Sequence record: NC_073080.1
Origin: Escherichia phage EC115
DNA length: 44,849 bases
Strand: one strand, 5' to 3'
The notes below the pieces were generated by a model, which saw nothing but the letters and a program-made list of their open reading frames with translations, was not told the origin of the DNA and did no database searches. Numbering within the stretch: position 1 is the first letter of the stretch; each line of letters starts with the position of its first letter. This document shows positions 22,304 to 39,835 of the stretch, in pieces. Made by a program: the position numbers and the translations under genes.

Positions 22304-24262
22304 ATGGCAGCGGGCACACTATCCGTAACGAATAACAGCAAGGCGGTTGTCGGGGTAGGCACGACGTTTACCGCGTTTAAAGCCGGAGACTTCTTAACGC
22401 TGGTGGTGGGCCAAGTACCCTACACCGTAGCGATCGCGTCCGTTGAAAGTGCAACCGCGCTAACGCTGGTGCTGCCGTTCGACGGCCCAACGGCAACCGG
22501 CCTCGCGTGGGATGGCGTTAAGCGCGATACCATGTCGCTGGCAACGATGGGCGTTACCGTACAGGCACAGAAAGCGTTGCGCTTGATGATCGCAGATGAA
22601 AACAACTGGCGTGCAATCTTCGGCGACGCTGAAGAAATCACAGTGACGTTACCTAACGGGCAAGTTATGCAGGGCATGTCGTGGGGCTATTTGTCCTCCT
22701 TGCTGAAGGAAGTAGACCCCGTTGAGATGCGCAACCTTCAACAACAGGCCGAGACGGCGAAAAAGACTGGGGCGGAGACGGCGCGCGACGCAGCTAATAC
22801 TGCGAAGACCGACGCGCAGACCGCAAAAGGCCAGGCCGAATCCGCGCGCGACGCCGCTAATACTGCGAAGACTGGGGCGGAGACGGCACGCGACCAGGCT
22901 AATACTGCGAAGACCGACGCGCAGACCGCAAAAGGCCAGGCCGAATCCGCGCGCGACGCCGCTAATACTGCGAAGACCGGAGCAGAGAACGCTCGCAACC
23001 AGGCGCAAGGCTACCGTGATGAGGCGGAAGGTTTTAAAAACCAGATTAACCCTGCACTATTCGTGCAGAAGTCCCAAAACCTGAATGACGTTGCCGATAA
23101 AGCTGAGGCGCGCGCTAACTTGCAAGTTTTATTTGCGTCAAACTCTAACCTGGGGGCTACCGACCTCAACACGCTCAACAGCACGAAGGAAGGGCGTTAT
23201 TACCAGACCACATCGGTGAACGCTACACCAGAGCGTAACTACCCGTTTCAGGAAGCCGGTTGTCTTACCGTGTTTAAAACCGGCGGGGGTAGTGTGGAGG
23301 CTTGCATCCAGGAGTACACCACGTTTTTAAGCCTGCGTCGGTTCGTCCGTTCGCTCGCTGGGGCGGTGTGGACGGCGTGGAAGGAGATCTACCTGCAAGG
23401 GTCGTCCCCAACATACGAAAATATCGACTCGACAGGACGAGTTAGATCTGAAAAGGCATACCCAGCGTTCGAGTGGGTGTCGACGAGAGTAGCCGACGAT
23501 TTCATCGGTAAGCGAGTCAGCATTGAGAACGACACAGGCGTTAATATGTATATGTTCTTCATGCGGAAAGACACAACCGCAAACAGACGTGTCGTAGCGT
23601 TCGCAAGGCCAAACTCTACTGTTTTCCACTTCGTAGGGTATAACGGCGGGTTACCTACCGACGGCAACAGTGCGCCGTCAAATAACATCAACTTTAACAC
23701 GCAACCGCAAGGCTGGCGTCTGGTGTCCGGCGGCTGGCAAAATGCACCGCTAGCCGGTAACAATTACGGGACACTATTCACGCAATGCATGCAGGGTGTC
23801 GCGGAAGGGGATTCGAAAGACAACGGTACATCAGGCTTGTGGTATTCACAGCGATATTTTAATTCCGAGTCTAGGGTGTTCATCCGACATCAAACAAACA
23901 ACGCCGCTTGGACTGGCTGGTACGAGCTTACTAAAACAGCAGTATCGGATGAACGCCTGAAGAATGTAAAAGGTAATTTGAATGTTGAAGGTGCGCTCGA
24001 TAACATCAACCGCATGGAATTTAAAATATTCTCGTTTAAGGATGAGAAGGCCGGTAAGGGGTGTCGTCGCGGTGTTATCTCGCAGCAGATTCGCCAGATC
24101 GATAAAGAGTACACGAAGGAGATCGGCGGGTACTATCACCTCGACCAGACACCAATGCTACTGGACGCCCTAGCGGCAATTAAGGCGTTGCGTGCGCGTG
24201 ACGAGGCTAATAAAGCAGAGATTGCAGAACTGAAGGCGGCTATTGCCGAATTGAAGAAATAA
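22304..24262 (+). CDS. Tail fibre protein with C-terminal intramolecular chaperone domain
   Basis: 652 aa; conserved N-terminus, tandem Ala/Thr-rich repeats, C-terminal DERLKN-containing segment resembling self-cleaving chaperone domains of tail fibres/spikes, coiled-coil tail. Confidence 0.85.
   Translation: MAAGTLSVTNNSKAVVGVGTTFTAFKAGDFLTLVVGQVPYTVAIASVESATALTLVLPFDGPTATGLAWDGVKRDTMSLATMGVTVQAQKALRLMIADENNWRAIFGDAEEITVTLPNGQVMQGMSWGYLSSLLKEVDPVEMRNLQQQAETAKKTGAETARDAANTAKTDAQTAKGQAESARDAANTAKTGAETARDQANTAKTDAQTAKGQAESARDAANTAKTGAENARNQAQGYRDEAEGFKNQINPALFVQKSQNLNDVADKAEARANLQVLFASNSNLGATDLNTLNSTKEGRYYQTTSVNATPERNYPFQEAGCLTVFKTGGGSVEACIQEYTTFLSLRRFVRSLAGAVWTAWKEIYLQGSSPTYENIDSTGRVRSEKAYPAFEWVSTRVADDFIGKRVSIENDTGVNMYMFFMRKDTTANRRVVAFARPNSTVFHFVGYNGGLPTDGNSAPSNNINFNTQPQGWRLVSGGWQNAPLAGNNYGTLFTQCMQGVAEGDSKDNGTSGLWYSQRYFNSESRVFIRHQTNNAAWTGWYELTKTAVSDERLKNVKGNLNVEGALDNINRMEFKIFSFKDEKAGKGCRRGVISQQIRQIDKEYTKEIGGYYHLDQTPMLLDALAAIKALRARDEANKAEIAELKAAIAELKK
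22766..23010 (+). repeat. Tandem 105 bp repeat (about 2.3 copies) inside tail fibre gene
   Basis: Near-identical 105 nt units encoding a repeating 35 aa block (…ARDAANTAKT…). Confidence 0.8.
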
Positions 24263-30356: not shown

Positions 30357-30615
30357 CCAATAAATCACAGTCGGCGATGTTGTCTATAACGCGAACGTCA
30401 GCGCCGCGGCGGGCCATCCGCTCATGTTCACGTACCTGGTGCGGCTTCGGTTTTCCTCCTGGGCGCTTCACTTCGACGAACACTATTTTGCCGTTGATGA
30501 TGATAATCAGGTCGGGCGCACCTGCGCGCCCCTCCCAGGCCATTTTGCGGCAGAATCCGCCTACCTCTTTCACCCGTCGCATCAGGTGACTTTGAATCTT
30601 GCCTTCTGGTGTCAT
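30337..30615 (-). CDS. VRR-NUC domain nuclease
   Basis: 92 aa from ATG 30615; PDLIIIINGKIVFVEVKRPGGKPKPHQ matches the VRR-NUC D...E.K core; start overlaps the polymerase stop. Confidence 0.7.
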   Translation of the reverse strand: MTPEGKIQSHLMRRVKEVGGFCRKMAWEGRAGAPDLIIIINGKIVFVEVKRPGGKPKPHQVREHERMARRGADVRVIDNIADCDLLVAELVA

Positions 30616-32906
30616 TACTTCCTGTACCTGTACATGATGTCGCCTTCGGCGGCAAGCGGGAAGCCTTTCGCCCAAATCGGCAGGTCGCACATCAGCGCGC
30701 ATAGCTCCTCGGTCGTGTAGTCGTCAGTATCCGGAACCTCGGTGATCAGTTCATCGTGTACGGACAGTACGATCTCATATCCCGCAGCTTCAACGCCAGG
30801 CATGGACCATGCGAGGATATCGCGACACAGCGCCTGTACGATGTTTTCCGTGAGTTTGCCGCCGTAGGTGTACTGGAAGCCCCACTGGCGGGTCGTCTGA
30901 TTCTCGCCCTGATATTTAATGCGGGTGCTGGTGCGTTTCTTGCCAGTATCTTCGTCGATCTCGGTAGTGACAGACAGCGCAATGCCTGGATAACTCATAA
31001 TACGCCCCGACGGCAACTCAATTTTCAACCACCACCCCGCGGCGTTCGGGTCGTCGCGTTCCTCGTCGAAGGTTGGGTCATGCTTCGCCTTCGTGCGGAC
31101 TATCTTGAGCGCTTTCTTACCATCCGGGCGAACGTTCGCGCCAGCCCAGTACGCTTTGCCAGGATTGCGGATTGCACACAACACCGCGTCCTCAAGCTCG
31201 GCCCAAAAGGCTACCGTCTTCGGGTGCGCCTCTCGCCACATGCGTTTAATCGCATCACACGTAAGCCATACGTTTTTCGGCAGTATGTAAGTCGGGCGCT
31301 CGTCCTTCTTGCCAGGCTTCGGCGGTCGCTTCGCTTCGTTAATGCGGGCGTACGCATAACCCCGTTTAGCCGCTGCCCAAATGTGATCGGGGAATGTGCC
31401 CTTCATGACGTCCGCCATCGCGTAAAGGTCGAGGCCCAGGTTTTTAGCGAACTGCAAGAACGCAGCCACGCCGCCGCCATAGCCAAGTCCCAACTCACAC
31501 GCCTTACCAATCTGGCGTAGGTCTTTGCGGTTGGCTTTAATGTATTCCGGGTCAAGGCCGAACATCTTACCGGCAGTTTCACAATAAATATCGCGACCGG
31601 CCCTAAACACCATTAGCGCGGTTTTCTCACCAGCGATCCAGGCGAGGCCACGCCCTTCCACGTTAGAATAGTCCGCTACGACAAACTTCTTACCCTTCGC
31701 TGGAATAATGCACCCGCGAACGGTCGAGGCCGTTAGCTTCGATATGTCATACGCCCAGTGCGCTGTCCCGCGTAACAGGGAGTTTATGCCGTTGGTGAGC
31801 ATGTGCGACCGCACCCAAAACGCGACGTCGCTCTCGCCTTCACGGCGTTTAATCTTCCCTTCGTGGTCGTCGCTATACTCGCCGCGTGCCAGGTTTTGCG
31901 GCTGGAAGCCTTTACCGGCCCAGCGTAGCGTGCGTTTCGCCCCACCATACTGGAGACACCCACGACGGCGACCATCTGCAGATAAGCCATTAACGAGCGG
32001 ATTGTACTTAGTCGATGCCGTTGATGATGCACCGAGGCGCATCTCGATAAGCACTTTGCCCTCGTCGGGGAAGTCCGGGTCTTCCAGCAGGTCGTTAAGC
32101 GTGGATTTCTGCGCGTTGTGTATTGTGAACGCAGGCGCGAGGTCGCGCAGCGCTGGCAGGAAGTCATTGCCTGTCAGCTTACCGCCGAAGCGCTCCCATG
32201 CTTCTTCCTTCAATTCTTCCTTATGCGCCTGCACCGCTTTGATCGCGGCGTTCGCCAGGTCAACGTCCACATAGAAGCCGCGGTCGTTGATCAACTGGTC
32301 AATAAGCAGGATTTCATCTTCCTTCGGCGTGTTACCCCAGTCCGGTATGCGCCAGTAGACTTCCCTCATCGCTATAATGTCAAGCGCGGCATAGCGCAGG
32401 AATTTAGCCCACTCCTCGGGGTGCGTCTCGCGCGTGTAGCGGCGGATTTTGTAGGTCTTAGGGGTTGGCTTACAGAATCGTTTGATCAGCGCCTTGCCCG
32501 CCTTATCCTTCGCGTGCTCTGCGTCAACGCCCAGCACCTGGCATTGCATATCGAGGCTACCCGGCAGCGCGTGGCGAAAGGCCATAATCATGGTATCTTC
32601 GATCTGGCCTACCGGCAGGTCAATGCCCCACTTCTCGCGAATAACCAGGCGGTCAAACAGGAGGCCGTTAGCCATCACGATTTTTGCTTTCTTGCGGGAT
32701 ACCTGGCGGAGCGCCTTGCGCAGTTCACGCGGCATTGTGGGGGATTCGGTGCAATCCCAGGTCTGCACGCGGCCCTCGTCGATGGCGTATGTGCAAATCA
32801 TAATCTCAGTAGTTGGGTGTTCCGCGTAGGCGTATGCGCCCACTTTCTTCAGATCCACCCCGCTAAATGTCTCGGTATCGAGAAACAGGCGTTCAAAGTC
32901 TTTCAT
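30615..32906 (-). CDS. DNA polymerase, family A (3'-5' exonuclease plus polymerase)
   Basis: 763 aa; Exo I-like LDTETFS, motif A-like VADYSNVEGR, motif B-like RQIGKACELGLGYG, motif C LSVHDELI. Confidence 0.9.
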   Translation of the reverse strand: MKDFERLFLDTETFSGVDLKKVGAYAYAEHPTTEIMICTYAIDEGRVQTWDCTESPTMPRELRKALRQVSRKKAKIVMANGLLFDRLVIREKWGIDLPVGQIEDTMIMAFRHALPGSLDMQCQVLGVDAEHAKDKAGKALIKRFCKPTPKTYKIRRYTRETHPEEWAKFLRYAALDIIAMREVYWRIPDWGNTPKEDEILLIDQLINDRGFYVDVDLANAAIKAVQAHKEELKEEAWERFGGKLTGNDFLPALRDLAPAFTIHNAQKSTLNDLLEDPDFPDEGKVLIEMRLGASSTASTKYNPLVNGLSADGRRRGCLQYGGAKRTLRWAGKGFQPQNLARGEYSDDHEGKIKRREGESDVAFWVRSHMLTNGINSLLRGTAHWAYDISKLTASTVRGCIIPAKGKKFVVADYSNVEGRGLAWIAGEKTALMVFRAGRDIYCETAGKMFGLDPEYIKANRKDLRQIGKACELGLGYGGGVAAFLQFAKNLGLDLYAMADVMKGTFPDHIWAAAKRGYAYARINEAKRPPKPGKKDERPTYILPKNVWLTCDAIKRMWREAHPKTVAFWAELEDAVLCAIRNPGKAYWAGANVRPDGKKALKIVRTKAKHDPTFDEERDDPNAAGWWLKIELPSGRIMSYPGIALSVTTEIDEDTGKKRTSTRIKYQGENQTTRQWGFQYTYGGKLTENIVQALCRDILAWSMPGVEAAGYEIVLSVHDELITEVPDTDDYTTEELCALMCDLPIWAKGFPLAAEGDIMYRYRK

Positions 32907-33073
32907 TGCTTAATCCTCACTACGGCGTCGGCGCTGCCGATCATGGAGAAGATACCGTCGGAAAGGGTTATCTCCTCGCCGTTGTTACGAACCTCGGCAA
33001 CGGTGAAATACTCGCCCAGCAGTTTAGACCATACCTGCATTCCGACTTTTACTTCGCTGGCTTTAATGCGCAT
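32903..33073 (-). CDS. Small ORF translationally coupled to polymerase (hypothetical)
   Basis: 56 aa (MRIKASEVKVGMQVWSKLLGEY...), AGGA RBS, ATGA overlap with the polymerase start; below the ORF-track size cutoff. Confidence 0.3.
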   Translation of the reverse strand: MRIKASEVKVGMQVWSKLLGEYFTVAEVRNNGEEITLSDGIFSMIGSADAVVRIKQ

Positions 33074-33084
33074 TTTTCATTGTC

Positions 33085-33113
33085 CTATTAAAAAGCCCGC
33101 ATTAAGCGGGCTT
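33085..33113 (-). terminator. Intrinsic terminator after SSB gene
   Basis: On the minus strand AAGCCCGC-uuaau-GCGGGCUU followed by UUUAAU. Confidence 0.45.
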
Positions 33114-33131
33114 GAATAGTGGGCTTTGCCC

Positions 33132-33914
33132 TTAACGGCGGCGACGTTTACGTGGCGCTTCGTCTTCGTCGTCGTCCTCATCTTCGTCATCGCGTGGCTT
33201 ACGACGTTTACGAGGTTTCTCGTCTTCGTCATCATCATCGTCATCGCGGCGCTTGGACTTTTTGGACTTGCGCGGCTTGTCGTCTTCGTCATCGTCATCA
33301 CGACGTTTTGACTTTTTGGACTTGCGCGGGCTTTCATCTTCGTCATCGTTGTCCAGGTCTTCGTCTGAGCAAGAAGAACCGCCACCGCCGAAGGCTTCGC
33401 CGTCATCGCGGAAGCGCAGACCCAAAAGACCCGCACCGAGTCCCTTGCCGTTGGTATTGTTCCACGCCCAAATGTCGAGGGACACGTTGCAATAACAACC
33501 GGAGTAGATCTCCTGGCCTTCGATCTCGTCACCTTCTACGGTCAGACCTTGTTCAGTCTGTTTCTCGCCGAGTGACGTTTGAATGTTTGGCTGCTTGAAC
33601 GATTTGGCGTTGATGTACAACATGCCTTCAAATTCTTCGGTTACTTCGTCACGCTCGTCACCGTCGCGGACTGCGCATTCCTTAGAATCCTGGGCGTAGT
33701 GCCGGTCCATCCACTTATCGGCATTCTTCTCGGATTTCAGCTTGTCGGTGAGCACTGCGCGCGCTGCCGCTTCCACTTTGTCCACCAGCGGATCTTCTTT
33801 ATCCAGAAGAATCACTGCACGGTATGCCGGTTTTTGTCCATCCTGTTTAGGGGTATCACGTTCCCAAATTTTCAGGAAACATACGCGCACATTTTTCAGG
33901 TTGACTTTAGCCAT
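33132..33914 (-). CDS. Single-stranded DNA-binding protein (T7 gp2.5 / DUF2815-like) with repetitive charged C-terminal tail
   Basis: N-terminus MAKVNLKNVRVCF... (start at ATG 33914 with GAGGA RBS; track ORF 33935); C-terminal third is three DDDDEDDKPRKSKKSKRR-type repeats. Confidence 0.55.
   Translation of the reverse strand: MAKVNLKNVRVCFLKIWERDTPKQDGQKPAYRAVILLDKEDPLVDKVEAAARAVLTDKLKSEKNADKWMDRHYAQDSKECAVRDGDERDEVTEEFEGMLYINAKSFKQPNIQTSLGEKQTEQGLTVEGDEIEGQEIYSGCYCNVSLDIWAWNNTNGKGLGAGLLGLRFRDDGEAFGGGGSSCSDEDLDNDDEDESPRKSKKSKRRDDDDEDDKPRKSKKSKRRDDDDDDEDEKPRKRRKPRDDEDEDDDEDEAPRKRRRR
33160..33340 (-). repeat. Tandem ~57-60 bp repeats (3 copies) inside SSB gene
   Basis: Repeated cgtcttcgtcatcgtcatc...gactttttggacttgcgcgg units on the plus strand. 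Confidence 0.7.
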
Positions 33915-34004
33915 TTTCCAATTCCTCATTTTCACATGTATCGGGGTTATTATGAGCCACCCCGTTCGGCTTGGTTGCTAATCTACTTGGTTGCGCCTAA
34001 GCGA

Positions 34005-34247
34005 TCAAGCACTTTTATTAAAAAGATTTCTGGTCACGTAGTTGGTAGCGTTCTCGACCCAGCTTAACGGCGGTCGGTCGATGTTCTTCTCCACCCAGTC
34101 GACGGCAGCGTCACTATATCCGTCGTCAAGCCAGCGGGTCGGATGGCGAATCATCCAGGCTACCATTAACACGCCTTGCACGCAATGCAGGATAAATCCC
34201 AGCGCGCCGAGCAAAAACATCAATAAGATCGCAAATACTTTATTCAT
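34005..34247 (-). CDS. Small membrane protein
   Basis: 80 aa with two hydrophobic helices (AILLMFLLGALGFIL; VLMVAWMI). Confidence 0.45.
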   Translation of the reverse strand: MNKVFAILLMFLLGALGFILHCVQGVLMVAWMIRHPTRWLDDGYSDAAVDWVEKNIDRPPLSWVENATNYVTRNLFNKSA

Positions 34248-35670
34248 TGCTTAAGTCCTCGTCAGTAGCTTCCGACCACGCAGGGCGCGGGTCGTCGATC
34301 GGTGCTAACACCGGTTTGGCGGGTGCGCGCGTGATTTTAGCACACAGCTTCGCCCACACTTTCGGTTTTTCGTCCTTCAGTACCTTCTCGGCATCGGTCG
34401 GGCTGAGCAATGTTTCTTTGTACATCACATCGCGCTTGATCCGGGCCTTCGTGAAGATTTCAATCACTTCGCTCTCGTCCGCCCACTTACGGATCCCTTC
34501 CTTACCGGCAACCATCTTGAGGCCTAGCGATTCGCCATCGCCCGCCATGACCGCCTTGAATACCGCTGACTCGATAGCCTTGATGTGCTGGCGCATCGCA
34601 TCAAGGCCTTCATAAGCCTTGCGCAGTTCCGCCGCGCTCATAGCGCCGGGGGCCGCTTCCTTCTTGCCGCGCTTCGCACGTCGGGCCGCCTTCCGGGCTT
34701 CGCGGGCCATATTGCGGTCGTGATTGGCGCATTCTTCCTCGGTCGCCACGCTCACGTCGTCGCCCAGGTCTTCGTCGGTTGCCGTTGGTGGTGTCATCGT
34801 GTCGATTGCGGCCTTCGCCCGGACGCTGCACTGGTCCGCAAATCTGCACCACTGGCACGCATCAACGCTCGGTCTGAAGTCGGCGCGGGTGAGTCCCTTT
34901 TTGCCTCTGGCGTACGCTTCCAGCGCGGCGATAGCGCGCTTGGATGCAAACTTCGCGAATATCTCCAGGGCTTCTACCGAAATATCCCATTCCGACGCCC
35001 CACCGCAATACGGCTGGAAGATAACCAAGCGCACAGACGTAATGTCGTACATGGTTTGCAGCTTGCGCAGCAGGCCGAGCGCGTACAACATAAGCTGTTT
35101 GTTTTCTTTCGCCTCGACCTTATGCCGCCCAGTCTTCAGGTCGCCAACAATCAGCATGTACGTCCCGTCGGTCTTTTTCATGACCATGACCATATCGGCA
35201 GTACCGAACGTTTTAATCCTGTTGCCGTCGATCTCGTAGCCTGAGTGAAGGACGCGGGTCAGGTCGGCGCGCATCTCAAGCTGGACAAACTCCGCCACTT
35301 CGAGGAGCGGTCGCCAGTGGTCGATGTACGCGTCGCACTGTTTCACCATGTCGTCGTTGACCAGTACGCCGCCTTTCGGTGCTTTAGGGTGTGCCTTCAC
35401 TGGCCCCTTGCCTTCGTTCTCGACGTAGCACCCTTTATACGTCTTTGCGGTTATCTGCTTCTCACCGGCGATAATACGGTTTAGCACCACTTCAGATACG
35501 GTGTGCATACTCGTACCGTTAATCGCGGCTTGCCCGGATTCGTTAGGGATATCTTTTTCCACCACCAGGGCGGCCGGACACCCCATCCATTTTTTAGCTC
35601 CGGATGGCCCGAGTAATGAGTGTTCCGTATTACTACCGGATTGCGTTTTACGTTTTGGTTTAATCGCCAT
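34240..35670 (-). CDS. PD-(D/E)xK exonuclease, DUF2800 / Cas4-like (putative)
   Basis: 476 aa; N-terminal HSLLGPSGAKKWMGCPA-type motif with a C-terminal Cys cluster (CQWCRFADQC); gene partner of the gp2.5-like SSB. Confidence 0.6.
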   Translation of the reverse strand: MAIKPKRKTQSGSNTEHSLLGPSGAKKWMGCPAALVVEKDIPNESGQAAINGTSMHTVSEVVLNRIIAGEKQITAKTYKGCYVENEGKGPVKAHPKAPKGGVLVNDDMVKQCDAYIDHWRPLLEVAEFVQLEMRADLTRVLHSGYEIDGNRIKTFGTADMVMVMKKTDGTYMLIVGDLKTGRHKVEAKENKQLMLYALGLLRKLQTMYDITSVRLVIFQPYCGGASEWDISVEALEIFAKFASKRAIAALEAYARGKKGLTRADFRPSVDACQWCRFADQCSVRAKAAIDTMTPPTATDEDLGDDVSVATEEECANHDRNMAREARKAARRAKRGKKEAAPGAMSAAELRKAYEGLDAMRQHIKAIESAVFKAVMAGDGESLGLKMVAGKEGIRKWADESEVIEIFTKARIKRDVMYKETLLSPTDAEKVLKDEKPKVWAKLCAKITRAPAKPVLAPIDDPRPAWSEATDEDLSNE

Positions 35671-36288: not shown

Positions 36289-36828
36289 TTAGTCTTCCAG
36301 TTCGAAATAAGTTTCGACGATTTCTTTTAGCTCTGTGTGGAAGTCTTCGACGTCGTCATCTTCCAGCTTGGCGATTGATTTGATCTCGAACGATTCCAGA
36401 AGGTCGTCGAATTCGTCGTTGGCATCGTCGTCGTCACCACCCGCGATAATAGCGGCGTACTGTTTGATCTCGTCGCGCATCTCCGCCAGCGGATCGGCAT
36501 CTTTCTTACCTTTGCCTTTAGCCGGTGCTTTTTTGGTTTTCGCCGGTTTTACGTCATCGGCATCGTCGTCGTCGTCATCTTCTACGACTTCTTTTTTGGC
36601 TTTACCTTTAGACTTGGTTTCTTTTGCCGCGCCTTTTTTCGCTTTTGGCGCATCTTCGACTTCGTCCTGGTCGTCGTCTTCGACTTCAGTCTCCGGCTTG
36701 GCCTTGCCTTTCTTAGCTGTGCCGTTTGCTTTTGGGTCTACGGCAGCGCCAACGGTTTCATAATGCTTAGCGATGGTTTCCAGTGCTACTACGCCGCGAG
36801 TAATCAGGTTTACGATTTGTTCAAACAT
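36289..36828 (-). CDS. Highly charged low-complexity protein (alternating Lys-rich and Asp/Glu-rich blocks)
   Basis: 179 aa; first gene of the leftward operon with GGAG RBS; long poly-acidic runs interleaved with KKGKAK-type basic stretches. Confidence 0.6.
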   Translation of the reverse strand: MFEQIVNLITRGVVALETIAKHYETVGAAVDPKANGTAKKGKAKPETEVEDDDQDEVEDAPKAKKGAAKETKSKGKAKKEVVEDDDDDDADDVKPAKTKKAPAKGKGKKDADPLAEMRDEIKQYAAIIAGGDDDDANDEFDDLLESFEIKSIAKLEDDDVEDFHTELKEIVETYFELED

Positions 36829-37570: not shown

Positions 37571-39835
37571 ATGAGCTTAATTAAATTCGCTGTAACAAGA
37601 CCCGCTAAAAAAGGCGAAAAAGCCAGGGCGGAAAACTTCCAGATGACGACCGATGAGTTTTTCGAATTTATCAAAGATGCGAAAGAAATCTCCTCGGTGC
37701 ATATCAACAAGACGGAAGATAAAGCCGAGTATGCGCGCCGCAAGCGTAAGGCCGACGGCATCGTGGCGTATACCAGTGACGGATTGCGTCGTAAGACCAG
37801 TGCGGTGGACCGCTCGATCCTGTTCTTTGATATCGACCGCACCGACACTCGCACCTTGCGCCGCTGCCGTAAGGCTTTCATCGATGCGGGTCTGGAACAC
37901 GTATTCCACACCACTACGGGCGACCGCCACCCGCTGAAGGGCGGAACGCGTTGCGCCCGATTCCTGGTGCTCACTGACAAGCCTGTCCCGGCGGAAGACC
38001 TGGGCCGTGTCCAGTATGCGCTATTACACCAACTTGGTCTGTCAGATGTGGACTTCGACGATTGCACGAAAGACACAAACCGCCTGATGTACCTGCCACA
38101 CCAGCAGTCTGTTATTAAGTGCCACTACGGAAAACGTGCCCGAGTCCGTCGTCTGCTTCGCCTGGCGGATAAGTTGGGCGTGGAGAAGGAGGAAGTACGC
38201 CGCGAACTAACCCAGGGCGATGACGCAGTGGCAGACGGCATTCTGGACTGGTGCTTCCAGGCAGGATTCGAGGAGTTATCTTCCGGTCGCGGTTATGAAG
38301 TGCCGTGCCCGAACGAACATCTGCACAGCGGCGAAGGGTCGACGGCTATCATGGTCAAGGATGGCGAGATCCGTTTCAAGTGTATGCACACCGGCAACGA
38401 GTGTTGCTCGGAACTGAATAGACACCAGCACCTGGCGCTGCGTCTTATCGGGATCCCTGACCACCTGAACGTCGAGCCACACAACATGTCCCGTAAGCAA
38501 ATCGCCGCCATCCTTCCGGGGCTGGACGACGAGGAAGTCGAATCCTTATATGAACATATTGTTGATGCGGTTGGCGACGGCGAAGAATACGGCGTGTGCA
38601 CCGATGCGGATCTGGATAACGAGCCGGTTGCGCTGTTCAGCAAGCACGACCCGATCATCGAGGGGTTGATTAACTTCAAATCGACCTGGTACATGGCGGG
38701 TGAGTCGAATATTGGTAAGTCTTTCTACGTGCTGGGTCAAATGGGCGCTGTTGCCGCCGGTATTCCGTTCGGCGGTGCGAAGGTCGTCCAGTCTCATTGC
38801 TTCTATTTCGATGCGGAAGGTGGTGAAGCCTCCAACCAGCGTAAAGAAGCATTGCAGATTAAATACGAGCACGACCTGGACAAGCTGCACATTATCGATC
38901 TGCAGTCACGCGGCTGGGATATCACCAGCAAATCCGGCTTGCGCGAAGTTATCAGCTTTATCAACCGCACCGCTAACGGCGAACCGGTTGGCCTGGTGGC
39001 GTTCGACTCACTCAACCAGACTGTTGCGCTGCGGTCCGCCGATGCTAAACCGTTCGACGAGAACAACGCCAGCGATATGGGTGAAGTGGTCAAAGCGCTG
39101 AAAGCCATTGCGGAAAATACAGGTGGCAGTGCGGGCGTCATCCACCACCCGGCGAAGGGTGCCAACGGCAGCAGAACCCCACGCGGATCCGGCGCGCTGC
39201 ATGGTGCTGTCGATTCTGCGTTCTTCCTGGAACAGCCGGACGACAACCAGCCCGGACAATTGAACCTGTATCACGAAAAGTCACGTAACGGCATCAAGCA
39301 AGCGCCGCGCGGCTTCGTCCTGCTCAAGTGCAAGGTGAAGGTGGATCTCCGCAAGTCAGAAGCGTTCGAGGTGCACCAGTCCACCAGCACCGGGCCAGAC
39401 TTCGGCGACGTGGTTGCCGGATGGGACGTCAAGCCGATTGCCTCCACGCCACGCGACGAGACTCTCTACCTCGTACCGGTTGCCCTGGCACCGTTCGCTA
39501 TTGAACAGGCGAAGGCCGCGGGCAAAGCAGCAGTTAAAGAAGAGAACACCGCCGGACCGCGCAACGAAAAAGAGAAAGTGCTTTATGCGGCACTGGAAAA
39601 ACTGATGGAAGATAACCCGGACCATACTGGATTCAGTAAATCGGCAATTGTCCGCCAGGCTGGGCTGGCAAAAGGTGGCACTTCGACGAAGGCAATCGAC
39701 GATATGGTAGAGCGCGGAGTGATAGGTTTTTACACCGATCCGCACACTGGGGCCATCTATGGGTCGTCTAATTTGGTCATCAAATCGGATATCCCCATCA
39801 CGCTTTCAGCGACCGATGACGATTTAAAAGATTAA
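37571..39835 (+). CDS. DNA primase / RecA-like P-loop helicase with C-terminal winged-helix-like domain
   Basis: 754 aa; N-terminal acidic FFDIDRTD motif, Cys/His zinc-binding segment, Walker A GESNIGKS and Walker B-like FYFDAEGG, C-terminal ~120 aa resembling a winged helix. Confidence 0.75.
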   Translation: MSLIKFAVTRPAKKGEKARAENFQMTTDEFFEFIKDAKEISSVHINKTEDKAEYARRKRKADGIVAYTSDGLRRKTSAVDRSILFFDIDRTDTRTLRRCRKAFIDAGLEHVFHTTTGDRHPLKGGTRCARFLVLTDKPVPAEDLGRVQYALLHQLGLSDVDFDDCTKDTNRLMYLPHQQSVIKCHYGKRARVRRLLRLADKLGVEKEEVRRELTQGDDAVADGILDWCFQAGFEELSSGRGYEVPCPNEHLHSGEGSTAIMVKDGEIRFKCMHTGNECCSELNRHQHLALRLIGIPDHLNVEPHNMSRKQIAAILPGLDDEEVESLYEHIVDAVGDGEEYGVCTDADLDNEPVALFSKHDPIIEGLINFKSTWYMAGESNIGKSFYVLGQMGAVAAGIPFGGAKVVQSHCFYFDAEGGEASNQRKEALQIKYEHDLDKLHIIDLQSRGWDITSKSGLREVISFINRTANGEPVGLVAFDSLNQTVALRSADAKPFDENNASDMGEVVKALKAIAENTGGSAGVIHHPAKGANGSRTPRGSGALHGAVDSAFFLEQPDDNQPGQLNLYHEKSRNGIKQAPRGFVLLKCKVKVDLRKSEAFEVHQSTSTGPDFGDVVAGWDVKPIASTPRDETLYLVPVALAPFAIEQAKAAGKAAVKEENTAGPRNEKEKVLYAALEKLMEDNPDHTGFSKSAIVRQAGLAKGGTSTKAIDDMVERGVIGFYTDPHTGAIYGSSNLVIKSDIPITLSATDDDLKD

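What the first reader, a model, noticed from the sequence alone, without database searches (positions are those of the whole stretch)
33132..33914. gp2.5-type SSB whose C-terminal tail is built from tandem mixed-charge repeats
The SSB N-terminus resembles T7 gp2.5-family proteins, but the last ~90 residues are three ~19 aa repeats alternating poly-Asp/Glu with PRKSKKSKRR, encoded by near-identical ~57 bp DNA repeats at 33160-33340. gp2.5 family tails are normally purely acidic; a mixed-charge repetitive tail may change partner recruitment or phase behaviour and is prone to copy-number change.
Basis: seen in the sequence. Interest (0 to 1): 0.5.

Follow-up and report, generated by a model that had tools for sequence, protein, structure and literature searches.

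The report
Phage SSB with charge-balanced acid/basic tail
This coliphage's single-stranded-DNA-binding protein has the usual T7-type DNA-binding fold, but instead of the short acidic tail expected of such proteins it carries a long disordered tail of alternating acidic and arginine/lysine blocks ending in oligo-arginine; this tail is conserved in a large group of phages and does not appear in the literature I could search.

Summary
Window 33132-33914 (-) encodes a 260-aa Enc34/T7 gp2.5-type SSB of a Dhillonvirus (E. coli siphophage). Residues 1-176 form a confident OB-type fold. Residues 180-260 are predicted to be disordered.

The tail has four units, not three. Each is an acidic block, then Pro, then a basic block, and the protein ends ...APRKRRRR. 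The DNA units are only 57-77% identical, so "near-identical" overstates it.

In an unbiased sample of the family, 125 of 148 tails are short and purely acidic and 18 are mixed-charge. The mixed type marks the whole clade that holds Dhillonvirus and the four Guernseyvirinae phages examined. Unit number runs from 1 to 4 within Dhillonvirus, through in-frame whole-unit changes. The tail is under purifying selection (pN/pS 0.12). Its net charge (median -8) equals that of canonical acidic tails.

The tail begins with a motif, [ST]D[DE]DL. The same motif closes the helicase-primase and occurs twice in the neighbouring DUF2800 exonuclease, and it co-varies with the SSB tail across lineages.

Best reading: a T7-like acidic docking peptide extended by charge-balanced modules that tune self-, partner- or DNA-contacts. 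The identity is secure; the mechanism is inferred. It is a new variant of a known kind, of moderate interest.

The parts
33132..33914 (-). SSB gene (260 codons plus TAA stop); ATG at 33914 with a GAGG Shine-Dalgarno at 33924-33927
   Evidence: Pfam PF10991; PHROG 112. Relatives are annotated from the same MAKVNLK start.
33387..33914 (-). OB-type ssDNA-binding domain, residues 1-176, followed by a GGGG hinge (residues 176-179)
   Evidence: AF2 pLDDT above 90 for residues 1-172. Foldseek matches 5odl, 4klk and 1je5. The Enc34 DNA-stacking Trp150 and Asn154 align to W149 and N153.
33135..33377 (-). Disordered mixed-charge tail, residues 180-260: 36 D/E, 28 K/R, net -8
   Evidence: AF2 pLDDT below 50 for most of residues 197-259; composition and charge blockiness against shuffles
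33354..33368 (-). Proximal acidic motif S-D-E-D-L (residues 183-187). The same motif lies at the C-termini of the helicase-primase and the exonuclease
   Evidence: D186 is nearly invariant (at least 90%) in alignment A1.
33300..33368 (-). Unit 1: SDEDLDNDDEDES-PRKSKKSKRR (residues 183-205)
33246..33299 (-). Unit 2: DDDDEDDK-PRKSKKSKRR (residues 206-223). Absent in HK578, AV129 and Envy
33192..33245 (-). Unit 3: DDDDDDEDEK-PRKRRKPR (residues 224-241). Absent in JL1
33135..33191 (-). Unit 4: DDEDEDDDEDEA-PRKRRRR (residues 242-260). This terminal unit is kept in every Dhillonvirus examined
33093..33113 (-). GC-rich hairpin followed by a U-run just after the stop codon; likely an intrinsic terminator
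   Evidence: RNA fold -24.6 kcal/mol, z -4.2. Some related records annotate a terminator under the matched stretch. The simple pattern scan missed it.
34240..35670 (-). DUF2800 / PD-(D/E)XK exonuclease. It carries the same motif internally (TATDEDLGDD, DEDL at 34765-34776, followed by a basic insert) and at its C-terminus (SEATDEDLSNE*, DEDL at 34252-34263)
   Evidence: Pfam PF10926 and PF12705; PHROG 69; motif scan; conservation
37571..39835 (+). Replicative helicase-primase ending ...LSATDDDLKD* (DDDL at 39815-39826)
   Evidence: PHROG 3228, Pfam AAA_25; motif; conserved C-terminal [DE]DL in relatives
36289..36828 (-). 179-aa protein of unknown function (PHROG 3127). It has its own copy-number-variable mixed-charge repeats and a DEFDDLL motif

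Best explanation
**What it is (secure)**
The feature is the intrinsically disordered C-terminal tail of the phage's replication and recombination SSB. The SSB is an Enc34/T7 gp2.5-type OB-fold protein of a Dhillonvirus.

**Anatomy (shown)**
- After the OB domain and a GGGG hinge comes a conserved acidic motif, [ST]-D-[DE]-D-L followed by D/E residues.
- Then come one to four near-neutral modules. Each is about 8-12 D/E, then x-Pro, then about 6-9 R/K/S. The protein ends in oligo-Arg.

**How it most likely works (inferred)**
1. The proximal acidic motif is the family's docking peptide. It corresponds to the acidic tail of T7 gp2.5, which binds the protein's own DNA cleft and the replisome partners.
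2. The helicase-primase and the DUF2800 exonuclease carry the same peptide, so they would compete for, or share, the same site. That site is either the SSB groove or the polymerase.
3. The appended modules keep the tail's net charge at the canonical value of about -8 while tripling its length.
4. The basic blocks pair electrostatically with acidic blocks of the same or a neighbouring SSB, with the acidic tails of partners, or with the DNA backbone. This would tune three properties:
   - auto-inhibition of the DNA cleft;
   - cooperativity and annealing on ssDNA;
   - the local concentration of replisome proteins.

**How the copy number changes (partly shown)**
In-frame gains and losses of whole units are shown. 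That recombination between units causes them is inferred. Unit number would set the valency.
For: **Identity**
- Pfam, PHROG, the AF2 model and Foldseek agree.
- The DNA-stacking Trp is conserved.
- The SECphi4 and SECphi18 orthologues, whose tails are built of the same units, are the genetically defined trigger of Retron-Eco8 as a 'Gp2.5 family SSB'.

**Selection on the protein, not the DNA**
- Among 12 Dhillonviruses the tail has pN/pS 0.12 with pS 0.40. The domain has pN/pS 0.07 with pS 0.28.
- All unit-number changes are in frame, and the terminal ...DEDEAPRKRRRR is always kept.

**Charge balance**
- Across 132 mixed tails, acidic count = 1.15 x basic count + 5.7 (r = 0.93).
- Median net charge is -8, the same as in 128 canonical acidic tails, although the mixed tails are 60 aa long against 22.

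**Clade-wide conservation with lineage-specific repeat units**

**Shared motif**
- D[DE]DL occurs five times in all six-frame ORFs of at least 50 aa.
- Four of the five are at the SSB tail start, the helicase-primase C-terminus, the exonuclease C-terminus and the exonuclease linker.
- The motif is conserved in Jerseyvirus, in the Serratia phage and in more than 30 IMG/VR loci.

**Co-variation of exonuclease and SSB tails**
- In lineages with other SSB tails, the exonuclease copies that tail. In L060, VSADDFADL appears in the SSB tail and inside the exonuclease. In L067-L069, the SSB ends ...AEAE[AS]FV and the exonuclease ends ...DAEAFV.

**An acidic motif followed by a basic block recurs**
- The same arrangement is seen in the Dhillonvirus exonuclease linker. 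Mixed-charge repeats also occur in the 179-aa neighbour.

**Precedent**
- The acidic tails of T7 gp2.5 and Enc34 ORF6 regulate DNA binding and partner contacts (PMC10359462, PMC5686142).
Against: - No biochemical or structural datum exists for this tail.
- The binding site of the shared motif is unknown. It could be the SSB groove, the polymerase or something else.
- Viable phages carry 1 to 4 units, so extra units cannot be essential.
- Retron-Eco8 escape mutations in the orthologues map to the OB domain (T56P), not the tail.
- The co-variation and charge statistics are not corrected for phylogeny. Most mixed tails belong to one clade.
- The more acidic OB domain seen with mixed tails (median -5 against +2) is heterogeneous among the small independent lineages.
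Confidence: 0.5

Rival explanations
1. The repeats are functionally neutral low-complexity expansions of an acidic tail. They would be made by replication slippage or unequal recombination and merely tolerated, with only the first acidic motif mattering.
For: - Unit number varies from 1 to 4 among near-identical, viable Dhillonviruses.
- Jerseyvirus and Kagunavirus manage with a single unit.
- Repeat units are lineage-specific, which implies frequent turnover.
Against: - pN/pS is 0.12 in the tail despite a high pS.
- Every lineage of the clade keeps at least one acidic-plus-Arg-rich unit, down to about 37% domain identity.
- Acidic and basic residues are added in a strict ratio (r = 0.93), which keeps net charge near -8.
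- Pro-Arg at the acidic-to-basic junction is conserved.
Confidence: 0.2
2. The tail is a scaffold for a phage replication condensate. Blocky polyampholyte tails of many SSB molecules would coacervate with each other, with the mixed-charge 179-aa protein and with the exonuclease insert, and so concentrate the replisome on phage DNA.
For: - The fraction of charged residues is 0.79 and kappa is about 0.6. The blocks of 8-12 residues are of a kind known (from my own knowledge) to drive phase separation of proteins such as Ddx4.
- Two more proteins of the same module have mixed-charge segments.
Against: - There is no experimental evidence.
- One-unit tails of about 20 aa in Jerseyvirus are short for a scaffold.
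- SSB and 179-aa protein repeat lengths do not co-vary (r = 0.30, n = 12).
Confidence: 0.15
3. The repeats act at the DNA level, for example as iterons of a replication origin embedded in a replication gene (as lambda ori lies within gene O). The amino-acid pattern would then be a by-product.
For: - There are tandem direct repeats of 54-bp period inside a replication gene.
- The coding strand is purine-rich, 64%.
Against: - Units are only 57-77% identical at the DNA level.
- Synonymous divergence is higher in the tail (0.40) than in the domain (0.28), while amino acids are conserved.
- Unit number ranges from 1 to 4.
- Distant relatives keep the charge pattern with unrelated DNA.
- There is no adjacent AT-rich stretch; the tail is 54% GC.
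Confidence: 0.03
4. The repeat region is an assembly or sequencing artefact.
For: Three public sequences have frameshifted tails that read into the alternative frame: L012 MZ234014.1, P0005 vB_EcoS-22664B1 and P0009. The region is therefore error-prone.
Against: - The same in-frame architecture is found in more than 150 independently sequenced phage genomes and in IMG/VR contigs.
- The variants differ by clean whole-unit changes.
Confidence: 0.02

Closest known systems
Enterobacter phage Enc34 ORF6 SSB (PDB 5odj/5odl; Pfam PF10991, formerly DUF2815)
   Same: - Same Pfam family and same fold (TM 0.77 to 5odl).
- The DNA-stacking Trp and the Asn are conserved (W149, N153).
- A disordered tail follows the OB domain.
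- A DUF2800 exonuclease and a family-A polymerase sit beside the SSB gene here, as they do in the relatives examined.
   Different: The Enc34 tail is about 29 residues with 16 D/E (PMC5686142). Here the tail is 81 residues with 28 K/R in four blocks and ends in RRRR.
Bacteriophage T7 gp2.5 and the acidic C-terminal tails of the T7 replisome
   Same: - The OB fold is related (1je5, E 3e-6).
- The net tail charge is similar.
- The logic is similar. In T7, the SSB and the helicase-primase (gp4) both end in acidic tails that contact the polymerase; this comes from my own knowledge of the Richardson laboratory's work. PMC10359462 reviews the gp2.5 tail.
- Here the SSB, the helicase-primase and the exonuclease share [ST]D[DE]DL.
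   Different: - The T7 tail is purely acidic and needs its C-terminal Phe.
- Here the motif is internal to the SSB tail and the hydrophobic residue is Leu.
- Here the C-terminus is oligo-Arg.
- Sequence identity to gp2.5 is only 10-14%.
E. coli-type SSB: OB tetramer, intrinsically disordered linker and DDDIPF tip
   Same: Both have an OB domain, then a disordered region of variable length and low complexity, then a short acidic docking peptide. Some distant relatives of this protein even end in ...DDEIPF or ...DDDLPF (P0105, P0250).
   Different: - It is a different OB family (no PF00436 match).
- Its linker is rich in Gly, Pro and Gln rather than charged.
- Its docking peptide is at the very end, not at the start of the tail.
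T4 gp32 basic LAST motif, (Lys/Arg)3(Ser/Thr)2, together with its acidic C-terminal domain
   Same: A phage SSB that combines a short K/R/S-rich peptide (KRKST; compare RKSKKSKRR here) with an acidic region. In gp32 the basic peptide mediates cooperative binding. This is recalled from memory and is a lead only.
   Different: - The fold is unrelated.
- In gp32 the basic motif is N-terminal and single.
Charge-block polyampholyte disordered regions of eukaryotic condensate proteins (Ddx4 N-terminus, arginine-rich mixed-charge domains)
   Same: Alternating blocks of about 8-12 like charges, a very high fraction of charged residues and predicted disorder.
   Different: There is no homology. Phase behaviour is untested. 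The context is a bacteriophage replisome.

Membership tests
Enc34 / T7 gp2.5-type SSB (Pfam PF10991, PHROG 112) | Significant match to the family profile over the whole domain | tested here: met
   PF10991 at 108.4 bits (cut-off 26), residues 3-193. phrog_112 at E 8e-54. PDB sequence hits 4klk, 4jg2 and 5odj.
Enc34 / T7 gp2.5-type SSB (Pfam PF10991, PHROG 112) | OB-fold variant of the T7 type | tested here: met
   AF2 pLDDT above 90 for residues 1-172. Foldseek: 5odl E 3.9e-12 with TM 0.77; 1je5 E 3e-6.
Enc34 / T7 gp2.5-type SSB (Pfam PF10991, PHROG 112) | Conserved aromatic residue that stacks on ssDNA (Enc34 Trp150, T7 Tyr158) and the polar residue Asn154 | tested here: met
   W149 and N153 align to Enc34 Trp150 and Asn154. 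Enc34 Tyr156 aligns to N155, so that one is not conserved.
Enc34 / T7 gp2.5-type SSB (Pfam PF10991, PHROG 112) | Short, purely acidic C-terminal tail, in many members ending in a hydrophobic or aromatic residue | tested here: not met
   The tail is 81 aa with 28 K/R and ends in RRRR. 125 of 148 unbiased family representatives have the canonical acidic tail. Net charge (-8) and the proximal acidic motif are retained.
Enc34 / T7 gp2.5-type SSB (Pfam PF10991, PHROG 112) | Preferential ssDNA binding and strand annealing | not testable with these tools
   Only indirect evidence. The SECphi4 orthologue activates Retron-Eco8, which T7 gp2.5 also activates.
E. coli-type SSB (PF00436, DDDIPF tip) | SSB-family OB domain and a C-terminal D-D-D-I-P-F tip | tested here: not met
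   PF10991 is the only Pfam match. The C-terminus is PRKRRRR.
Charge-block polyampholyte disordered region | Predicted disorder, a high fraction of charged residues, and charges segregated into blocks beyond chance | tested here: met
   pLDDT below 50. Fraction of charged residues 0.79, kappa about 0.61, and 0 of 5000 shuffles as blocky.
Charge-block polyampholyte disordered region | Self-association or phase separation that depends on the charge pattern | not testable with these tools
   Needs purified protein.
Iteron-type origin inside a replication gene (lambda ori type) | Several well-conserved DNA repeats constrained at the nucleotide level, with a fixed array next to an AT-rich region | tested here: not met
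   Units are 57-77% identical and the region is 54% GC. pS in the tail (0.40) exceeds pS in the domain, and unit number ranges from 1 to 4.

The most novel reading that the evidence does not exclude
In Dhillonvirus, Guernseyvirinae and their relatives the replisome would be wired by an electrostatic code that runs in both directions. The SSB, helicase-primase and exonuclease all display the same acidic [ST]D[DE]DL peptide. The SSB tail also offers a variable number of Arg/Lys pads that capture those acidic peptides, its own acidic blocks and DNA. SSB-coated ssDNA would then nucleate a multivalent, condensate-like replication and recombination hub whose valency evolves by repeat gain and loss. 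The net charge of about -8 would be the conserved 'DNA-mimic' quantity of all gp2.5-type tails.
Probability: 0.15. Interest if true: 0.8.

Novelty: new variant of a known kind. Interest (0 to 1): 0.55.

Why it matters
Reviews and structural papers state that all bacterial and phage SSBs carry an acidic C-terminal tail that recruits partners; the Enc34 structure paper (PMC5686142) says so explicitly. Here a large and experimentally tractable group of phages departs from that rule. The group includes:
- Dhillonviruses of the BASEL collection;
- SECphi4 and SECphi18, used in defence-system work;
- the Jersey-like Salmonella phage examined.

The departure is orderly. The net charge and the proximal docking peptide are kept, but the tail is three times longer, contains arginine/lysine blocks and ends in oligo-Arg.

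Nature has already made an allelic series of 1-4 units. The series makes the role of SSB tail length, valency and charge pattern directly testable in replication, annealing and possibly compartment formation.

The finding that the helicase-primase and the exonuclease copy the SSB's tail motif extends the T7 'acidic tail' logic to a recombination nuclease.

SSBs of this group also trigger defence systems such as Retron-Eco8.

Tried and rejected
1. **Word-index bias.** The word-index protein search with the full protein returned only mixed-charge tails, because the low-complexity tail biases which candidates are chosen. I repeated the search with the OB domain alone against the unindexed representative library. 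That search gave the true ratio of 125 acidic to 18 mixed tails.
2. **Retron-Eco8 escape mutants.** I looked for escape mutations in the tail of the SECphi4 and SECphi18 orthologues. The escapes listed in the part of the table I read (SECphi4 and the first SECphi18 mutant) are T56P in the OB domain or an upstream intergenic change. They give no functional information on the tail.
3. **Iteron or origin reading.** Rejected on the synonymous and nonsynonymous pattern and the low DNA identity.
4. **Assembly artefact.** Rejected on recurrence in more than 150 genomes. The three frameshifted public versions are probably errors.
5. **Co-variation of repeat length.** SSB length and the length of the 179-aa mixed-charge protein do not co-vary: r = 0.30, n = 12.
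6. **Terminator scan.** The consensus scan did not report the hairpin after the stop codon. Folding shows it clearly.
7. **Literature.** Searches for mixed-charge or phase-separating gp2.5-type SSBs, and for DUF2815, found nothing on such tails.
8. **Domain charge.** The link between mixed tails and more acidic OB domains holds for the two larger clades but not for the small independent lineages. I treat it as suggestive only.
Full report
**1. The observation**

The minus-strand ORF 33132-33914 encodes 260 residues. It starts at the ATG at 33914 (MAKVNLK...), preceded by GAGG at 33924-33927, and ends at TAA 33132-33134. A GC-rich hairpin with a U-run follows at about 33093-33113 (-24.6 kcal/mol, z -4.2).

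The C-terminal part reads GGGG-SSC-SDEDLDNDDEDES-PRKSKKSKRR-DDDDEDDK-PRKSKKSKRR-DDDDDDEDEK-PRKRRKPR-DDEDEDDDEDEA-PRKRRRR. That makes four units of acidic block, x-Pro and basic block, not three. Their window coordinates are:

| Unit | Residues | Window |
|---|---|---|
| 1 | 183-205 | 33300-33368 |
| 2 | 206-223 | 33246-33299 |
| 3 | 224-241 | 33192-33245 |
| 4 | 242-260 | 33135-33191 |

- Tandem Repeats Finder reports period 54, 2.3 copies and 86% matches at 33225-33349.
- Pairwise DNA identity of the units is only 57-77%, so "near-identical" is too strong.
- The tail (residues 180-260) has 36 D/E and 28 K/R. Net charge is -8 and the fraction of charged residues is 0.79.
- The blockiness of charge is 0.453, against 0.093 +/- 0.036 in 5000 shuffles. 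None reaches it, and kappa is about 0.61.

**2. What the protein is**

- Residues 3-193 match Pfam PF10991 (Enc34 ssDNA-binding protein, formerly DUF2815) at 108 bits. The protein also matches PHROG 112, 'Gp2.5-like ssDNA binding protein and ssDNA annealing protein'.
- An AlphaFold2 model built on a 68-sequence alignment has pLDDT above 90 for residues 1-172 and below 50 for most of the tail.
- Foldseek places the model on Enc34 SSB bound to ssDNA (5odl, E 3.9e-12, TM 0.77), on two DUF2815 structures, and on T7 gp2.5 (1je5, E 3e-6).
- The Enc34 residue that stacks on the 5' bases, Trp150, corresponds to Tyr158 of T7. It aligns to W149 here, and Asn154 aligns to N153. Tyr156 is not conserved.

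The window is a Dhillonvirus, an HK578-like E. coli siphophage. It is 96.7% identical to SSL-2009a over this region, and 153 phage records match.

The neighbouring genes are:
- a family-A DNA polymerase (30615-32906);
- a 56-aa ORF;
- an 80-aa ORF;
- a DUF2800 / PD-(D/E)XK exonuclease (34240-35670);
- a 179-aa protein of unknown function;
- a helicase-primase (37571-39835).

The orthologues in SECphi4 and SECphi18 have been handled experimentally as 'predicted SSB (Gp2.5 family)' and are the trigger of Retron-Eco8. The escape mutations listed in the part of the table I read are T56P in the OB domain or an upstream intergenic change. The tail was left out of the published model as 'flexible C-terminal residues'.

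**3. Is the tail unusual for the family?**

The first homologue search used a word index and was biased by the low-complexity tail. All 120 listed hits had mixed tails.

I therefore searched 1.84 billion cluster representatives with the OB domain alone. I delimited the tails with a local profile. The result for 148 representatives:

| Tail type | Count | Notes |
|---|---|---|
| Short, purely acidic | 125 | median 22 aa; many end in a hydrophobic residue (...DDLI, ...DDIPF, ...DFLS) |
| Mixed-charge | 18 | |
| Other | 5 | |

The mixed tail is nevertheless not a quirk of this phage.
- In a neighbour-joining tree of the domain, 102 mixed-tail proteins including this one form one clade. Sixteen more form a second clade and about ten are scattered. 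This needs at least nine state changes. The tree is crude, so I read it only as more than one origin.
- I examined one phage from each of Jerseyvirus, Kagunavirus and Cornellvirus, and a Serratia phage of the Guernseyvirinae. Their tails have one, one, two and three units respectively (...DDLEDDEDETPRRERRRNR...EEDEAPRRERRRRG, and so on).
- Phocaeicola and Burkholderia phages have plain acidic tails.
- Repeat units are homogenised within lineages. P0108 has DEDDEDERPAKRRSR four times, and P0120 has DDDDDDDAPRSRGRRR four times. Expansion has therefore recurred.

**4. Copy number and selection**

Among Dhillonviruses the tail has the following unit numbers:

| Units | Phages | Protein length |
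|---|---|---|
| 1 | welsh | 202 aa |
| 2 | EP23 | 224 aa |
| 3 | HK578, JL1, Envy, AV129, SECphi4 | 236-242 aa (SECphi4 not measured) |
| 4 | this window, SSL-2009a, SECphi18, Haito, PS2, LM40P1 | 257-264 aa |

- All differences are in-frame losses or gains of whole units. Different units are missing in different phages, and the last unit (...DEDEAPRKRRRR) is always retained.
- Three public sequences have frameshifts that run into the stop-free alternative frame. These are most likely errors.
- Over aligned codons the tail has pN/pS 0.12 with pS 0.40. The domain has pN/pS 0.07 with pS 0.28. The amino-acid sequence is therefore under purifying selection and the DNA sequence is not. This rules out an iteron-like DNA role and neutral junk.

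**5. A conserved quantity**

- Across 132 mixed tails, the number of acidic residues tracks the number of basic residues: acidic = 1.15 x basic + 5.7, r = 0.93.
- Median net charge is -8 (interquartile range -10 to -6). The 128 canonical acidic tails have the same median and range, although the mixed tails are about three times longer.
- The added modules are thus near-neutral, and the canonical negative charge is preserved.
- The junction is stereotyped: about eight D/E, then R/A/K, then Pro, then Arg (93%), then more R/K/S.
- In this window Pro sits at all four acidic-to-basic junctions and at none of the basic-to-acidic junctions.
- OB domains attached to mixed tails are more acidic. The median is -5 in the large clade and about -2 in the second, against +2 for acidic-tail proteins. 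The small independent lineages are heterogeneous and the comparison is confounded by phylogeny.

**6. A motif shared with partners**

The tail begins with S-D-E-D-L; in relatives this is A-T-D-D-D-L, with D186 nearly invariant.

Scanning all six-frame ORFs of at least 50 aa for D[DE]DL gives five hits:
- the SSB tail start;
- the C-terminus of the helicase-primase (...LSATDDDLKD*);
- the C-terminus of the DUF2800 exonuclease (...WSEATDEDLSNE*);
- the exonuclease inter-domain linker (...PPTATDEDLGDD...);
- one hit in an unannotated ORF.

From rough amino-acid frequencies that I assumed, not measured here, about 0.02 hits would be expected within the last 12 residues of about 60 proteins. Two are observed.

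The motif is conserved at the same places in relatives.
- In Jerseyvirus S102 the exonuclease ends ...NVTEEDL* and the helicase-primase ends ...TTEGDLE*.
- In Serratia phage Otaku the ends are ...AASDEDLA* and ...KATYDDLE*.
- It is also conserved in more than 30 IMG/VR loci.

Where the SSB tail differs, the exonuclease follows it.
- In L060, VSADDFADL occurs in the SSB tail and in the exonuclease linker, and the exonuclease C-terminus has VDDFADR.
- In L067-L069 the SSB ends ...AEAE[AS]FV and the exonuclease ends ...DAEAFV.
- In L070 the ends are ...DDDMI and ...FDDLI.

The exonuclease C-terminus scores higher against its own SSB tail than against the tails of other loci: 22.5 against 18.4, with 0 of 5000 permutations reaching it. 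This is not corrected for phylogeny.

In Dhillonviruses the exonuclease's internal motif is itself followed by a basic insert, AREARKAARRAKRGKK. In L053 the insert is ARKARRE three times.

The 179-aa neighbour (PHROG 3127) has copy-number-variable EDDD...KPAKGKKA repeats and a DEFDDLL motif.

**7. Mechanism**

Shown:
- The tail is a disordered, blocky polyampholyte.
- It is selected at the protein level.
- It keeps the family's net charge and proximal acidic motif.
- Unit number changes easily.
- The same acidic motif is displayed by two partner enzymes.

From established knowledge:
- In T7 the acidic tail of gp2.5 occupies its own DNA cleft, stabilises dimers and contacts the polymerase and the helicase (PMC10359462).
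- The Enc34 tail lies in the groove of a neighbouring molecule in the crystal. Removing it abolishes discrimination between ssDNA and dsDNA (PMC5686142).

Inferred:
- The proximal motif is the docking peptide.
- The helicase-primase and the exonuclease use the same site.
- The basic blocks pair with acidic blocks or with DNA. This would tune auto-inhibition, cooperativity and annealing, and local concentration. Unit number would set the valency.

I put the identity at 0.9 or higher and this mechanism at about 0.35-0.4.

Rivals:
- Tolerated neutral expansion: 0.2.
- A condensate scaffold: 0.15. This overlaps with the best reading.
- A DNA-level element: 0.03.
- An artefact: 0.02.

**8. Comparison and novelty**

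By profile, fold and key residue it is a member of the Enc34/gp2.5 SSB family. It fails the family's textbook feature of a short, purely acidic tail.

Searches of the held literature for DUF2815, for Enc34, for mixed-charge SSBs and for gp2.5 with phase separation found no description of such tails. The preprint that used the SECphi4 and SECphi18 orthologues leaves the tail out of its structural figure.

I class it as a new variant of a known kind. Interest is moderate (0.55). It contradicts a common generalisation, it comes with a natural allelic series in laboratory phages, and the shared-motif result makes concrete binding experiments possible. No function has been demonstrated.

Noticed in passing
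window 36289-36828 (-): A 179-aa protein of unknown function (PHROG 3127, no Pfam hit). It has an N-terminal helix and a central region of mixed-charge repeats (EDDD..KPAKGKKAPAKGKGKK, histone-H1-like). The repeats vary in copy number among Dhillonviruses (142-180 aa). An acidic C-terminal part contains DEFDDLL, which resembles the canonical SSB tail motif. The protein is conserved beside the exonuclease across the clade.
   Followed up: partly
window 34240-35670 (-) and 37571-39835 (+): The DUF2800 exonuclease (twice) and the helicase-primase (at its C-terminus) carry the same [ST]D[DE]DL motif that opens the SSB tail. In other lineages the exonuclease copies whatever motif the local SSB tail has. 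This suggests a general 'SSB-tail mimicry' by DUF2800 nucleases.
   Followed up: partly
window 32903-33073 (-): A 56-aa ORF directly downstream of the SSB (PHROG 10102, unknown function). A near-identical protein appears in Table S2 of the Stokar-Avihail preprint with a frameshift (E21fs) in a defence-escape mutant. I did not identify the defence system.
   Followed up: no
L012 (MZ234014.1), P0005 (vB_EcoS-22664B1), P0009; window alternative frame 33077-33532 (-): Three public versions of this gene have a frameshift inside the repeats. They read a stop-free alternative frame (MTKMK...) past the normal stop. The alternative frame is open for 151 codons in the window. These are probably sequencing errors, but this was not verified.
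   Followed up: no
one search hit list (MG065648.1, OQ221563.1, OQ291023.1): Records labelled Campylobacter phage A144, Acinetobacter phage NJ01 and Salmonella phage Kenya-K19 are about 94-96% identical to this E. coli Dhillonvirus region. The host labels look doubtful. PQ843332.1 (88.6 kb) has three matching places and may be a concatenated assembly.
   Followed up: no
window 22763-23004 (+): A tandem repeat of period 105 bp, 2.3 copies, 92% matches, inside the 652-aa ORF 22304-24262.
   Followed up: no
L053 and Dhillonvirus loci, exonuclease linker: The Dhillonvirus-type exonuclease has a basic, probably helical, insert right after its internal acidic motif (AREARKAARRAKRGKK). In L053 it is a triple ARKARRE repeat. 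The insert is absent from the Guernseyvirinae-like loci.
   Followed up: no
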